From assembly GCF_055900595.2 (NCBI RefSeq), contig NZ_CM148325.1: a stretch of 64,000 nucleotides of DNA; one strand, 5' to 3'. The position numbers are program-made. Position 1 is the stretch's first letter; every line of letters begins with the position of its first letter. Shown one piece after another: positions 39,401 through 42,400 of the stretch.

Positions 39401-42400
39401 GTTATGCGGAAAAAGTTACTTTGCTTGTCAATAATCCATTTCACATCCGTTAATTCAATGCTATGCGTCTTCGCATTAATCTGGAAAGGTAGTAAGTGAA
39501 ATAAAAACTTAGCCAATGACTAATATCTGAGGATACTTTGTCATGAAAAGTATGCAATCAAAAACGGGCTCTCCACTCGTTCGAACTGAAGCCGAGCTAG
39601 AAAGCCGGCTTACTTCAGCACTAAACATAGCATTTCCTAACATTCCTCGCGAAGATCTTATCGAACAGCGCCATTTTACCGTTCGGCTAGGCCATGGAAC
39701 TTACAAAATAGATAGCGCCGCACACTGGAAAAAATACGGGCGAGCGGATGTTTTGATCTTTCATCGGGAGAGACCACTTGCGGTTATTGAACTGAAACGT
39801 GAAGACCTGACACTGACCCATGATGATTATGAACAGGCTCAAAGCTACGCTAACCAGTTAACACCACGTCCGCCTCTCGTTGTAGTTACGAACGGTAAAG
39901 ATACGCGCGTTTATGACTCAAGTAATGGACAACAGTGGTCGGGTGGACAGGATGCCTCGGCAGCGGTAAACAAGATGCTCGCCAATTCTGCAAAGTTGGC
40001 GGCGGCTGACATGCGCTGGGCTATTGAAGCCTTGATGGGGCGAGAAACTAATGCTTGGGTGCCAGCTGTGCGAGAAGAAACAGCCCGGCTGCTGATTGAT
40101 ATAACTGATCAGCCTGGGCATTCAGAACATCCATTTGCCAACAACCTACTTTTTCCTCGCAAAATCACGTCTCTTGTAATTGAATCTGCTGTGATGGGTA
40201 CAGCTTTCACTATCATTGAGGGTGATGCACAAAGCGGAAAAAGCAGTTGCCTCCGTGAAATTTCGCTAAAAACGGAAAGTAGCGATCTTTTGGCTGTCCT
40301 GATGTTACGAGGTTCCGGACCAGGACTATTTCAGGCTCTGGCCAATCTTTTTGCAGCTGAATTTGAATGGAATTTAACCTCAAATGATGCACGTAACTGG
40401 TTAAGACGAATGTCTAACTGCACTGAAGGTCCATCGCTTATGCTTGCTATCGACGACGTTGAACCAGGCTCCCAAATGGCTACTGATCTTGAGGAACTTG
40501 CGGGTATACGTTTTGGCAACAGGCTGGTGGTTGTTCTGACGACCTATCATGCCAACGCGTTACTGAAAAATCCAAACGGACGAACTCCGTCTGCAATTGG
40601 TAGCCGGTCGAAGGTATTTAAAACATCGCCTATGTCCCTAGATGAATTTAAGCTGGCGCAACAGATTCTCTCGGACCAGCGGATAGTTTTTCAACAGGGA
40701 GCAGAATACGCCGATGACTACCGCTCGCCTTGGGTTCTTCGCACTATTTATGATGACATTGTGCGCAATCATCAATACCAGAAAACGGATCTTATCGCCT
40801 ATCTTCCTCCATCACCCGGTATGGAACTTATAGATGCTGCGCAAAAGAGCTATGAGAGTCAGTATGATCTTCTTCGTTATTATCGGGTTCTTGCACGCTG
40901 CGCACTAGCTGACACAAACTCCCACTCAGTAGAATTAATGTTTGCTAAAGCGAATGGATTTGTCGTGCGGTATGACGCACTTTCTGACGAAGCTCGTGGT
41001 GTAGTGAATGAGTTAAAACATATGGGGGCAGTTCGTATTTTTCGCCTTTCAGGATGGGAAGATGTTGTGGTGCCGACAGTTCCCGCAGCTTACCTTCTGG
41101 AACTGTCGGATGCTGTTTGTGATGAACTGGTTTTACGGGCAGAACAAGACCCTCAAGACGCCGGGGCTTGGCTTGGCGAACGGCTAGACGCCACTTATCT
41201 TGGAGATATGATCGGTGCTCAAGCCATACGCCGTATGGCAGCTAAAGAGAGATATTTCAGCTTTGGAATTATTCAGGGCCTTCTCAGCATTGAGCCATAT
41301 AAAGAACCTATAAAAAACGGATTGTTTACTTTAGCCATGCCAGACAACCAACAAGTCAATCTAAAGATTGAGGATGGATTAGCGTGGATTTCTAAACACG
41401 GGGATGATGCAAAGAGTGTTCTGGTGAATTTAGAGGATCAAATCCCAAAGGTCATTTCTAAATCAACCAGTTGGATGATACTCGGGCAACTAGCGAAACT
41501 GCCGTCAGCAGAGGTGGGTGACGATGATCAGCGTATAGACGCCTATATTTTACTGAGCATTGGGCGCTGCCCATTTCCTCTAATTCGCACGAATATAGAA
41601 GGATTGCCTTACTTTGAGCATAATTTTGGCGATCAGGGTGATGTTCTTTGCCTAGAAAAAGCGTCTATTGAAGTTGCTACTCAGGCGATGGCTGATTTAT
41701 TTTCAGCCCCATGGCTCTATGCGGACCAGTGGGTGGATACAGCTATCGCGACCGGTTCTATACATTTACTGCATCGTTTGTTTGCTGCTTTAAACACAGT
41801 GATATTGCGTAGAATACCCGTGCAATCCGACTGGGCTAATGAAGCATTTAATCAACGTGTCTCACCAGCCCTTAAGGAAGCCATACGATCATTATCTTCG
41901 TGACTAAGCAATGGGATTTTAATACATAACGAGCATCTGTCCACGCAAGTTAACAATTGCCTTGGCTCGATATTTTGGTTTCTAGTGCATATATGCTGAT
42001 CTTCTCTTCGTTGATCTGATCTTACCCACCAATAGTGGACACAGGACTAAGTGAGTAAACTCTCAACCAGAGGTGACTCATGACAAAACCAGTATCAATC
42101 AGCAAGAAGCCCCGTGAACAACATTCGCCTGAATTTCGTAACGAAGCCCTGAAACTCGCTGAACGCATCGGTGTGGCCGCCGCAGCCCGTGAACTCAGCC
42201 TTTATGAATCTCAGCTTTATGCCTGGCGCAGTAAACAGCAGCAACAAATGAGTTCGTCAGAGCGCGAAAGCGAACTGGCCGCTGAAAATGTCCGCCTTAA
42301 ACGACAACTGGCGGAGCAGGCTGAGGAACTGGCCATCCTCCAAAAGGCCGCGACATACTTCGCGAATCGCCTGAAATGAAGTATGTCTTCATCGAAAATC

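What the first reader, a model, noticed from the sequence alone, without database searches (positions are those of the whole stretch)
39543..41903. Orphan 786-aa PD-(D/E)xK nuclease / P-loop NTPase fusion: possible unclassified single-gene defence protein
The N-terminal 130 aa carry a restriction-endonuclease-like signature of HsdR-N/Mrr type (ADVLIF, AVIELKRED, PPLVVVTNGKDTRVYD). A Walker A (GDAQSGKSS) and an hhhhDD-type Walker B (LMLAIDDVEP) follow, then about 400 aa of helical sequence with no motif I recognise. Nuclease-NTPase-sensor layouts recur in abortive-infection and STAND/Avs-like immunity proteins, but I cannot place this one in a named family from sequence alone. It lies 2 kb downstream of the Shango-like operon in the same island.
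Basis: partly seen in the sequence, partly recalled or inferred. Interest (0 to 1): 0.8.

Follow-up and report, generated by a model that had tools for sequence, protein, structure and literature searches.

The report
Unnamed nuclease–STAND-like ATPase defence candidate
This E. coli island gene encodes a DNA-cutting domain fused to an ATP-driven switch and a sensor-like tail; it belongs to a large, unnamed family that sits among anti-phage genes in many bacteria, so it is most likely an untested one-gene phage-defence protein of the familiar Avs/NLR-like design.

Summary
It is not an orphan in the sense of lacking relatives. At least 230 clusters at 50% identity match at E<=1e-30, nearly all full-length at about 780-830 aa, mostly in named Proteobacteria. 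In 82 diverse members D69, E83, K85, Q98 and Y102 (HsdR/RecB-type nuclease) and R206, G232-K233 and R394 are invariant. The Walker B residue D304 is kept in 81 of 82.

A confident AlphaFold model (pLDDT 88.6) shows nuclease, helical linker, P-loop, lid, winged helix, then a helical-repeat C-terminus with a beta insertion. The best fold matches are Apaf-1, CED-4, NOD2, Avs4/Avs5, ORC/Cdc6 and MuB/TnsC.

No PADLOC, NCBIfam or Pfam model names the family. No neighbour is conserved across it. A DUF5623 protein accompanies only one subclade, and the E. coli upstream membrane protein travels with Shango instead. Neighbours are repeatedly defence genes, on islands, plasmids and Tn7-like cargo.

Verdict: a plausible single-gene, Avs-like nuclease defence protein from an uncharacterised family. 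Function is inferred, not shown. Interest is moderate.

The parts
39543..41903 (+). Complete CDS, 786 aa plus stop codon: nuclease - AAA+/STAND-like NTPase - C-terminal sensor-like region
   Evidence: ORF list and translation. [quoted passage not shown] Full-length homologues are found in many genera.
39529..39533 (+). GAGGA Shine-Dalgarno-like sequence, 9 nt upstream of the ATG
   Evidence: Read directly from the sequence.
39588..39947 (+). N-terminal PD-(D/E)xK nuclease domain of HsdR-N/RecB type (residues 16-135)
   Evidence: Pfam HSDR_N_2 E 7.6e-9 and HSDR_N E 1.4e-8. 72 of 82 family members match HSDR_N at E<=1e-3. The model shows an alpha/beta core. It is the most conserved domain, with mean 44% identity to the query.
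39747..39848 (+). Catalytic motifs: D69 (39747-39749), E83-x-K85 (39789-39797), Q98-xxx-Y102 (39834-39848)
   Evidence: All five residues are 82/82 invariant. QxxxY is the RecB-family motif III described for EcoR124I HsdR; this comparison rests on my own knowledge, not on a tool result.
39948..40157 (+). Linker of two long helices (residues 136-205)
   Evidence: Helices 138-164 and 172-186 in the AF2 model, with lower pLDDT over residues 131-170.
40158..40628 (+). P-loop NTPase core (residues 206-362). Includes invariant R206, Walker A G227-S234 (nt 40221-40244), Walker B L299-D305 (nt 40437-40457) and R347.
40629..40862 (+). Helical lid (residues 363-440) with invariant E368, G386, R394 and near-invariant P396 and W397
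   Evidence: AF2 secondary structure and column counts.
40863..41078 (+). Winged-helix domain (residues 441-512): three helices followed by a beta hairpin
   Evidence: AF2 elements H441-456, H463-471, H482-493, E497-501 and E507-511. The long alignments to Avs4 (356 aa), AVAST5 (325 aa), NAIP5 (321 aa) and NOD2 (309 aa) are long enough to extend beyond the 157-residue P-loop core, although their aligned ranges were not reported.
41079..41900 (+). C-terminal sensor-like region (residues 513-786): helical repeats interrupted by a beta-rich insertion (584-664)

Best explanation
The gene encodes a self-contained, cytosolic immune nuclease built on the effector-switch-sensor plan of antiviral STAND (Avs/NLR-like) proteins.

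Proposed mechanism:
1. In the resting state the protein is a nucleotide-bound, autoinhibited monomer.
2. A cue made during phage or other mobile-element invasion is recognised by the C-terminal helical-repeat and beta-insertion region.
3. The central P-loop, lid and winged-helix module exchanges or binds NTP and drives oligomerisation.
4. Oligomerisation brings the N-terminal HsdR/RecB-type PD-(D/E)xK domains together, and they cut DNA. This either destroys the invader or kills the infected cell (abortive infection).

What is shown here: the domain order, invariance of the nuclease and NTP-binding residues, STAND/ORC-like fold, absence of any family-wide partner gene, and residence among defence genes on mobile DNA.

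What is inferred: defence activity, the nature of the trigger, oligomerisation, the DNA substrate and the outcome for the cell.
For: Catalytic and NTP-binding residues. D69, E83, K85, Q98 and Y102 are invariant in 82 sequences down to 25% identity, as are R206, G232, K233 and R394. D304 is 81/82.

Fold.
- The AF2 model has pLDDT 88.6 and pTM 0.80, with the order nuclease, linker, P-loop, lid, WHD, helical/beta C-terminus.
- Foldseek against the PDB is topped by Apaf-1, ORC/Cdc6, CED-4, Avs4, SAMD9, AVAST5, NLRC4, NAIP5, NOD2 and MalT, at E 1e-7 to 1e-5.
- Family members weakly hit Pfam nSTAND_NTPase5, AAA_16 and nSTAND3 as well as AAA_22.

No conserved partner.
- All-against-all BLAST of neighbours in 22 loci finds only one recurrent neighbour, DUF5623, restricted to one subclade.
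- That partner has been deleted upstream of an intact gene in L010.
- The E. coli upstream 338-aa membrane gene occurs with Shango but without this family in Salmonella.

Defence context in unrelated hosts.
- Shango in the window.
- Tmn, a type II REase-like gene, a mad2-like methyltransferase, MzaE/AbiU and a NERD helicase.
- A retron-type RT and DndB.
- AbiE, a zeta toxin, a HEPN-Ymh gene, an ABC-3C system and a TIR protein on Agrobacterium pTi.
- HsdR-SLFN, a Gabija-like pair and AbiJ.
- An OLD nuclease and Tn7-like cargo ends.
- By my own tally, at least 10 of 17 independent contexts hold a recognised defence gene within about 7 kb. Against the published background of 0.0153, which was derived for 5 kb with DefenseFinder (PMC12803255), this gives a binomial P of about 1e-14. 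This is a rough figure because my detection methods and window differ from theirs.

Patchy, mobile and dispensable.
- The gene is in 235 of 5426 complete E. coli genomes, all >=95% identical (234 at >=99%), in one island at tRNA-Arg.
- Relatives sit on 17 plasmids, 13 of them typed conjugative.
- IS-split, truncated and nonsense alleles exist.
Against: - No experiment of any kind bears on this family, and I found no paper naming it.
- No PADLOC Avs, bNACHT or other defence HMM matches beyond the nuclease domain.
- STAND hallmarks are incomplete. The residue after the Walker B Asp is Gly in 44 of 82 members, and the winged helix has no invariant His.
- The sensor region is short, about 275 aa. 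Its best fold matches are DNA-binding HEAT-like glycosylases, which fits a DNA cue as well as a protein cue.
- The E. coli protein departs from consensus at two well-conserved positions: A229 where 74/82 have P, and Y335 where 66/82 have D.
- One locus (L016) sits next to xseA and an M23 peptidase rather than defence genes.
Confidence: 0.5

Rival explanations
1. An ATP-dependent, DNA-sensing restriction-like nuclease. The AAA+ module behaves like MuB, TnsC or ORC/Cdc6: it binds or polymerises on DNA with help from the winged helix and the HEAT-like C-terminus. It recognises a feature of foreign DNA, such as a modification, damage, free ends or replication intermediates, and the HsdR-type nuclease cuts that DNA directly. 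This would be innate restriction rather than protein-triggered abortive infection.
For: - The best sequence-profile hits in the PDB are Cdc6 and ORC1.
- AAA_22 is the commonest NTPase Pfam hit in the family.
- The nuclease is of the type used by translocating type I restriction enzymes.
- Most members lack a second acidic residue in Walker B.
Against: - The longest alignments are to Avs4, Avs5, NAIP5 and NOD2.
- Alpha-solenoid matches at 7-11% identity are notoriously unspecific.
- No methyltransferase or other self-protection partner is conserved, so discrimination between self and foreign DNA would need another basis.
Confidence: 0.22
2. A two-gene system. The protein needs a neighbouring gene product as sensor, regulator or antitoxin: the 338-aa membrane protein in E. 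coli, or the DUF5623 protein elsewhere.
For: - In Dickeya, Pseudomonas, Burkholderia, Natronospirillum and Lysobacteraceae a 438-aa DUF5623 gene ends 13 nt before the family gene.
- On pTi the gene is flanked by a 212-aa gene with a 9-nt gap and by an overlapping HEPN-Ymh gene.
- In E. coli O26 11368 the 338-aa gene and this gene stay adjacent even where Shango is gone.
Against: - DUF5623 is confined to one subclade, and the E. coli protein branches outside it.
- Within that subclade L010 keeps only a 44-aa remnant and L017 has none, yet both have an intact family gene.
- No DUF5623 is encoded anywhere in the window.
- The 338-aa protein has no homologue near any other family member.
- In Salmonella it follows Shango and is followed by AbiGi instead. 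In Pectobacterium it lies beside CcdAB.
- A 640-nt gap separates it from this gene.
Confidence: 0.1
3. A function serving mobile elements rather than phage defence. Examples are exclusion of competing plasmids, ICEs or transposons, or post-segregational stabilisation of the island.
For: - Members lie on conjugative plasmids, 13 of 17 plasmid hits.
- They also lie on ICE-like islands with ParB, DUF932 and RadC genes, beside relaxase and T4CP genes, and at Tn7-like cargo ends.
- No copy was found in 50,697 phage records.
Against: - Defence genes are themselves typical cargo of exactly these elements.
- The neighbours are classical anti-phage genes.
- No antitoxin-like partner is conserved.
- Anti-plasmid and anti-phage activity are not mutually exclusive.
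Confidence: 0.08
4. In this particular strain the gene is a decaying, non-functional remnant of the island.
For: - The island is littered with IS fragments and pseudogenes.
- Other E. coli carry an IS3-split copy, and a 565-aa truncated allele is seen on 723 contigs.
- The window allele has A229 and Y335 at conserved positions.
Against: - The window ORF is intact and full length, with all 17 family-invariant residues of alignment A1 retained.
- A229 is shared with the close relatives in alignment A2 (Dickeya, Pseudomonas, Burkholderia and others), which all read GAAQSGKS at the Walker A.
- The same DNA is 100% identical in many genomes.
Confidence: 0.05

Closest known systems
Avs3/Avs4 (antiviral STAND NTPases with N-terminal nuclease effectors; e.g. 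SeAvs4, PDB 8dgf)
   Different: - This protein is half the size, 786 aa against about 1500-2000 aa.
- The nuclease is HsdR-N/RecB type with a QxxxY motif, not Mrr- or Cap4-like.
- The C-terminus is about 275 aa of HEAT-like repeats with a beta insertion, not a long TPR array.
- No PADLOC Avs HMM matches.
- Walker B is mostly hhhhDG.
- The trigger is unknown.
Avs5 / AVAST type 5 (SIR2-STAND, about 770-830 aa; PDB 9nc9, 9jap)
   Different: The effector is SIR2 (NAD+ depletion) rather than a nuclease, and there is no significant sequence similarity. Filament formation is shown for Avs5 only.
HsdR nuclease domain of type I restriction enzymes (e.g. EcoR124I, EcoAI)
   Same: The same Pfam families, HSDR_N and HSDR_N_2. 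The D...ExK...QxxxY motif set is the same. There is a weak NCBIfam hit to EcoAI HsdR residues 35-113.
   Different: There is no SF2 helicase/translocase motor and there are no HsdM or HsdS partners. The NCBIfam score is 22 bits against a cut-off of 550. [quoted passage not shown]
ORC/Cdc6, MuB and TnsC/TniB AAA+ ATPases (Pfam AAA_22 neighbourhood)
   Different: Those proteins carry no nuclease and work with partner proteins (MCM, MuA, TnsAB). Here no transposase or replication partner is conserved.
AlkC/AlkD/AlkD2 HEAT-like repeat DNA glycosylases (C-terminal region only)
   Different: Sequence identity is 7-11%. Solenoid matches are unspecific, no glycosylase residues were examined, and the beta insertion is absent from Alk proteins. 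This is a lead, not a classification.

Membership tests
STAND NTPases (Leipe-Koonin-Aravind sense; Avs/NLR-like) | P-loop NTPase with Walker A GxxxxGK[ST] and a Walker B aspartate | tested here: met
   G232 and K233 are 82/82, S/T234 is 82/82 and D304 is 81/82.
STAND NTPases (Leipe-Koonin-Aravind sense; Avs/NLR-like) | Conserved Arg-containing motif (hhGRExE-like) in the strand-helix just before the P-loop strand | tested here: inconclusive
   R206 is invariant within h-P-R-x-A-T, about 20 residues before the Walker A strand. ORC/Cdc6 proteins have an equivalent motif, so it does not discriminate between the two groups. The comparison rests on my own knowledge.
STAND NTPases (Leipe-Koonin-Aravind sense; Avs/NLR-like) | Walker B followed by a second acidic residue (hhhhDD/DE) | tested here: not met
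   Position 305 is G in 44, D in 12, N in 11 and E in 4 of 82 members. The E. coli protein itself has DD.
STAND NTPases (Leipe-Koonin-Aravind sense; Avs/NLR-like) | Helical lid (HD1/ARC1) followed by a winged-helix domain, the latter with a conserved nucleotide-contacting His (MHD/LHD) | tested here: inconclusive
   The lid (363-440) and a three-helix plus hairpin WHD (441-512) are present in the model. The lid carries invariant R394 and near-invariant P396 and W397. No His is conserved in the WHD.
STAND NTPases (Leipe-Koonin-Aravind sense; Avs/NLR-like) | Structural or sequence similarity closer to STANDs than to other AAA+ clades | tested here: inconclusive
   [not shown]
STAND NTPases (Leipe-Koonin-Aravind sense; Avs/NLR-like) | Ligand-induced, nucleotide-dependent oligomerisation | not testable with these tools
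   This needs SEC-MALS or cryo-EM with and without nucleotide and trigger.
Named Avs families (Avs1-5 and other systems in PADLOC-DB v2.0.0) | Match to the family's HMM | tested here: not met
   The only PADLOC hits at E<=1 are four MTase/REase models, all matching within residues 66-172 and centred on the nuclease domain. Avs7-24 of PMC12803255 could not be checked because its supplementary tables are not held.
Type I restriction enzyme R subunit (HsdR) | SF2 helicase/translocase motor (ResIII/DEAD plus Helicase_C) after the nuclease domain | tested here: not met
   Pfam finds only HSDR_N, HSDR_N_2 and a weak AAA_22 hit. NCBIfam EcoAI scores 22 bits against a cut-off of 550.
Type I restriction enzyme R subunit (HsdR) | Adjacent hsdM and hsdS genes | tested here: not met
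   No conserved methyltransferase or specificity neighbour was found in 22 loci. There is none in the window.
PD-(D/E)xK nuclease, HsdR-N/RecB-like subgroup | Catalytic D, ExK and QxxxY motifs on a restriction-endonuclease-like alpha/beta core | tested here: met
   D69, E83, K85, Q98 and Y102 are all 82/82. The Pfam matches are and the alpha/beta core is seen in the model. Catalysis itself was not tested.
Shango (SngABC) | Being one of, or always accompanying, SngA, SngB and SngC | tested here: not met
   - A terminator-like hairpin and 2.1 kb separate the gene from sngC.
- Shango is in 821 E. coli genomes against 235 for this gene.
- Salmonella Shango loci lack the gene.
- O26 11368 has the gene without Shango.

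The most novel reading that the evidence does not exclude
The family is not a protein-sensing Avs at all. Instead it is a new kind of compact, single-chain, ATP-gated DNA sensor-nuclease. An ORC/MuB-like AAA+ would load or polymerise on invading DNA, using a winged helix and an AlkD-like HEAT-repeat scanner that reads a DNA feature such as a modification, a lesion or an end. It would then fire an HsdR-type nuclease. This would be a motor-less, methyltransferase-less relative of type I/IV restriction. The DUF5623 protein would be an add-on regulator in one lineage.
Probability: 0.15. Interest if true: 0.65.

Novelty: new member of a known kind. Interest (0 to 1): 0.42.

Why it matters
If the gene protects against phage, it adds a widespread defence family that current annotation tools miss. 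PADLOC, NCBIfam and Pfam all label it merely 'HsdR N-terminal domain-containing'. The family is found in named Proteobacteria, in one Acidobacteriaceae assembly and in many unnamed metagenome contigs. It is present in Shiga-toxin-producing E. coli O26, Pseudomonas aeruginosa, the Burkholderia pseudomallei group, Vibrio parahaemolyticus and Agrobacterium Ti plasmids.

At 786 aa, with a high-confidence model and an E. coli origin, it is a convenient minimal system. It could be used to ask how a STAND/ORC-like switch gates a nuclease, and whether its short HEAT-like sensor reads a protein or DNA.

It is not a conceptual surprise. Nuclease-STAND fusions are established, and a recent survey already counts 198 defence-associated STAND clades (PMC12803255).

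Tried and rejected
- Named-family searches. PADLOC, NCBIfam, Pfam, PHROGs and PDB sequence searches gave only nuclease-domain hits, weak AAA+ hits, or an 'unknown function' PHROG that is the same protein.
- Literature. Searches for DUF5623, five accession numbers, and the RefSeq product name found nothing relevant.
  - DefensePredictor Table S6 lists no 786-aa or HsdR-N entry among the validated systems in the first of its three parts, and a term search of all its supplementary files found 'HsdR N-terminal' only in other tables, on proteins of 883 and 825 aa.
  - The domain-centric NAR 2026 paper and the Pseudomonas island paper do not mention the family.
  - GAPS1-6 of GMT islands are described with other domains.
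  - The supplements of the 2026 STAND survey are not held.
- A hidden DUF5623 gene or remnant in the window. tblastn found nothing better than E 2. The 85-aa ORF upstream of the Vibrio copy is also unrelated.
- The idea that the 338-aa membrane protein is a partner. Rejected on the Salmonella and Pectobacterium contexts.
- The idea that the gene belongs to Shango. Rejected.
- The idea of a TnsA-TnsC-like transposition protein, prompted by the MuB and TnsC fold hits. Rejected because no transposase is conserved nearby, and the Tn7-like genes seen in three loci are on the opposite strand with the family gene at the cargo end.
- Phage carriage. There was no hit in 50,697 phage records.
- The first attempt to scan genome contigs with the 82-sequence alignment failed because no stretch was conserved enough. 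It was repeated with a closer set.
- Promoter scan. No + strand sigma-70-like site was found in the 640-nt upstream gap at the tool's threshold, and the counts equalled the shuffled expectation, so nothing can be said about the promoter.
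Full report
**1. Observation**

The window holds an intact ORF at 39543..41903 on the + strand, 786 aa with an ATG start. A GAGGA sequence lies 9 nt upstream of the ATG.

Pfam places residues 63-131 in HSDR_N_2 (E 7.6e-9) and HSDR_N (E 1.4e-8). It gives only a marginal AAA_22 hit for residues 220-320. The protein has no predicted transmembrane segment.

The upstream three genes are a bona fide Shango system, with PADLOC SngA, SngB and SngC at E 2e-101, 1e-187 and 8e-278. 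Shango ends at 37401, and a terminator-like hairpin follows at 37413-37447.

The locus is part of an IS-riddled island inserted at tRNA-Arg(CCT), at 46003-46077 on the - strand, beside yfdC. An integrase lies at 44637-45854.

**2. It is a family, not an orphan**

The identical DNA occurs in 235 of 5426 complete E. coli genomes. All copies are chromosomal, 234 at >=99% identity and one at 95-99%, which indicates one recently spread island.

Outside E. coli there are full-length relatives of about 780-830 aa at 45-67% identity. They occur in Dickeya, Burkholderia, Pseudomonas, Shewanella, Aeromonas, Vibrio, Ralstonia, Sphingomonas, Mesorhizobium and an acidobacterium. An exhaustive HMMER scan of 1.84 billion representatives finds 809 clusters at E<=1e-3 and 230 at E<=1e-30. 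Most are aligned end to end, down to about 25% identity.

[quoted passage not shown] PADLOC, NCBIfam, PHROGs and PDB sequence searches add nothing beyond the nuclease domain and weak AAA+ similarity.

**3. Anatomy**

An 82-sequence alignment (A1) shows which residues are fixed:
- D69, E83, K85, Q98 and Y102 are 82/82. Together they form D...ExK...QxxxY, the motif set of HsdR/RecB-type nucleases; that comparison rests on my own knowledge.
- R206, G232-K233, E368, G386, R394, G495 and R745 are also 82/82.
- D304 (Walker B) is 81/82, and S/T234 is 82/82.
- The residue after D304 is Gly in 44 of 82 members, so the family consensus is hhhhDG. The E. coli protein has DD.

AlphaFold2 on this alignment gives a confident model (pLDDT 88.6, pTM 0.80) with these domains:
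- nuclease, residues 16-135
- two long linker helices, residues 138-186
- P-loop core, residues 206-362
- helical lid, residues 363-440
- a three-helix plus hairpin winged helix, residues 441-512
- a helical bundle, residues 513-583
- a beta-rich insertion, residues 584-664
- a terminal helical region, residues 665-786

Conservation is highest in the nuclease (44% mean identity to the query) and lowest in the beta insertion (23%) and the winged helix (26%).

**4. Fold relationships**

Foldseek against the PDB is led by Apaf-1, ORC/Cdc6, CED-4, Avs4, SAMD9, AVAST5, NLRC4, NAIP5, NOD2 and MalT, at E 1e-7 to 1e-5.

Scanning all 82 members against Pfam gives these counts at E<=1e-3 and E<=0.1:
- AAA_22: 18 and 53
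- nSTAND_NTPase5: 8 and 24
- AAA_16: 6 and 31
- nSTAND3: 1 and 11

The NTPase therefore lies at the border between STANDs and the ORC/Cdc6-MuB/TnsC group. I cannot assign it firmly to either.

**5. Is there a partner gene?**

In Dickeya, Pseudomonas, Burkholderia, Natronospirillum, a Lysobacteraceae MAG and a gammaproteobacterial MAG, a 438-aa gene ends 13 nt before the family gene. Its C-terminus is Pfam DUF5623 and matches PDB 3m6j, 'uncharacterized protein'.

This partner is confined to one subclade:
- A neighbour-joining tree places the E. coli protein outside that subclade.
- Inside it, Polaromonas (L010) retains only a 44-aa remnant and Hydrogenophaga (L017) has none, yet the family gene is intact in both.
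- Nothing DUF5623-like is encoded in the window.

All-against-all BLAST of neighbours within ±6 kb in 22 loci finds no other recurrent neighbour except integrases.

The E. coli upstream gene (37883..38899) encodes a protein with three N-terminal transmembrane helices, but it is not a partner:
- It has no homologue near any other family member.
- In Salmonella, at 91% identity, it follows Shango at the same spacing and is followed by AbiGi and other genes instead of this family.
- In Pectobacterium it sits next to CcdAB.

Shango itself is in 821 E. coli genomes, against 235 for this gene. E. coli O26:H11 11368 keeps this gene without Shango. The gene is therefore an independent module occupying a variable slot in the island.

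**6. Context**

Neighbours of family members in unrelated hosts are repeatedly defence or conflict genes:
- Shango in the window.
- A Tmn homologue (L018), a type II REase-like gene (L020), a mad2-like methyltransferase (L022), MzaE/AbiU (L027) and a NERD helicase (L010).
- A retron-type RT, DndB and a Gp49/HTH pair in Pseudomonas.
- DUF4917 and an Rce1-like protease in Burkholderia.
- On Agrobacterium octopine Ti plasmids: AbiEi/AbiEii, a zeta toxin, an overlapping HEPN-Ymh (TIGR02391) gene, an ABC-three-component system and a TIR protein. Ymh is classed as a HEPN family in PMC3710099.
- HsdR-SLFN, a Gabija-like pair and AbiJ on a mobilisable element.
- An OLD-family nuclease.

Three loci place the gene at the cargo end of Tn7-like transposons, next to TniQ. 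Seventeen plasmids carry a copy, 13 of them typed conjugative. No phage record does.

By my count at least 10 of 17 independent contexts hold a recognised defence gene within about 7 kb. The background quoted in PMC12803255 is 0.0153, derived for a 5-kb window. Against it the binomial P is about 1e-14. The figure is rough because my detection was heterogeneous and my window was wider.

Dispensability is shown by several defective alleles:
- an IS3-split copy in O26 11368
- a 565-aa truncated allele seen on 723 contigs
- an in-frame stop at the W397 codon in Enterobacteriaceae RIT691

**7. Mechanism**

The best-supported reading is a single-chain Avs-like immune nuclease. The C-terminal repeat and beta region would act as sensor, the P-loop, lid and WHD as a nucleotide-dependent oligomerisation switch, and the HsdR/RecB-type nuclease as effector.

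What is shown: the architecture, invariant catalytic and NTP-binding residues, fold similarity, absence of a partner, and defence context. What is inferred: defence activity, the trigger, oligomerisation, the substrate, and whether the outcome is abortive infection or restriction.

The remaining rivals are less likely, for the reasons given with each: an obligate two-gene system, a role purely in competition between mobile elements, and a dead remnant.

**8. Comparison and novelty**

The protein works like Avs3/Avs4. However, it fails the sequence test for every named Avs model available to me, and it only partly meets STAND hallmarks. It is not an HsdR, because it has no motor and no HsdM/HsdS partners. 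It is not part of Shango.

I found no paper that names or tests the family. A 2026 survey defines 589 STAND clades, 198 of them defence-associated, and names Avs7-24 (PMC12803255). Its tables are not held, so I cannot exclude that this family is one of its unnamed clades.

I therefore rate the finding as a new member of a known kind: real, testable in its native species and missed by current annotation, but not conceptually surprising.

Noticed in passing
window 37883..38899 (+): This 338-aa protein has three N-terminal transmembrane helices and a soluble C-terminal domain. It has no Pfam, PADLOC or NCBIfam match and hits PHROGs of unknown function. In Salmonella a 91%-identical copy sits at the same distance downstream of Shango SngABC, without the 786-aa gene. 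It may be a Shango accessory gene or an independent defence gene.
   Followed up: partly
L002 6672-7988; L003/L004 6672-7988; L005/L006 4672-5988; also L011-L014: A 438-aa protein with a C-terminal DUF5623 domain (PDB 3m6j, 'uncharacterized protein') ends 13 nt before the family gene. It occurs in one subclade only and its function is unknown. Polaromonas L010 (5817-5948) keeps a 44-aa remnant upstream of an intact family gene.
   Followed up: partly
L036 6001-9674 (E. coli O26:H11 11368); P0268: In O26 11368 the gene is split by an IS3-family element after about residue 218, and Shango is replaced by IS66 elements. A different 565-aa truncated allele, diverging after residue 543, is seen on 723 contigs. 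That is more contigs than carry the intact window allele (197).
   Followed up: partly
L030 6330-10110 (Agrobacterium tumefaciens Ach5 pTi): Octopine-type Ti plasmids carry a 28%-identical family member in an apparent three-gene operon. A 212-aa hypothetical gene precedes it with a 9-nt gap, and a TIGR02391/Ymh (HEPN) gene overlaps its end by 4 nt. The operon is embedded between AbiE, a zeta toxin, an ABC-three-component system and a TIR gene, which together form a defence island on pTi.
   Followed up: no
L007 10078-14481; L033 12954-13650; L035 9744-15807: In three unrelated loci the family gene lies one or two genes from TniQ, at the cargo end of Tn7-like transposons (TnsA, TnsB, TniB, TniQ).
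   Followed up: no
L009 5986-8361 (Enterobacteriaceae bacterium RIT691): This is the closest non-E. coli genome copy (66% identity). It has an in-frame stop exactly at the near-invariant W397 codon, which indicates a pseudogene or a sequencing error.
   Followed up: yes
[not shown]
   Followed up: partly
window 40227-40229 (A229) and 40545-40547 (Y335): The E. coli protein has Ala where 74/82 relatives have Pro in the Walker A loop. It has Tyr where 66/82 have Asp just after the fourth core strand. The effect on NTPase activity is unknown.
   Followed up: no
window 42080..43219 and 44637..46077: Downstream of the gene lie a frameshifted IS3-family transposase remnant and a 156-nt PapB/FocB-family regulator fragment. 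Beyond them are the island integrase (44637-45854, -) and tRNA-Arg(CCT) (46003-46077, -), which mark the island boundary next to yfdC.
   Followed up: partly
L040/L041 7605-10974 (Salmonella enterica): The slot that holds the 786-aa gene in E. coli is occupied in Salmonella by AbiGi plus two unannotated genes of 228 and 471 aa. The position downstream of Shango and the membrane gene therefore behaves as a variable defence-cargo slot.
   Followed up: no
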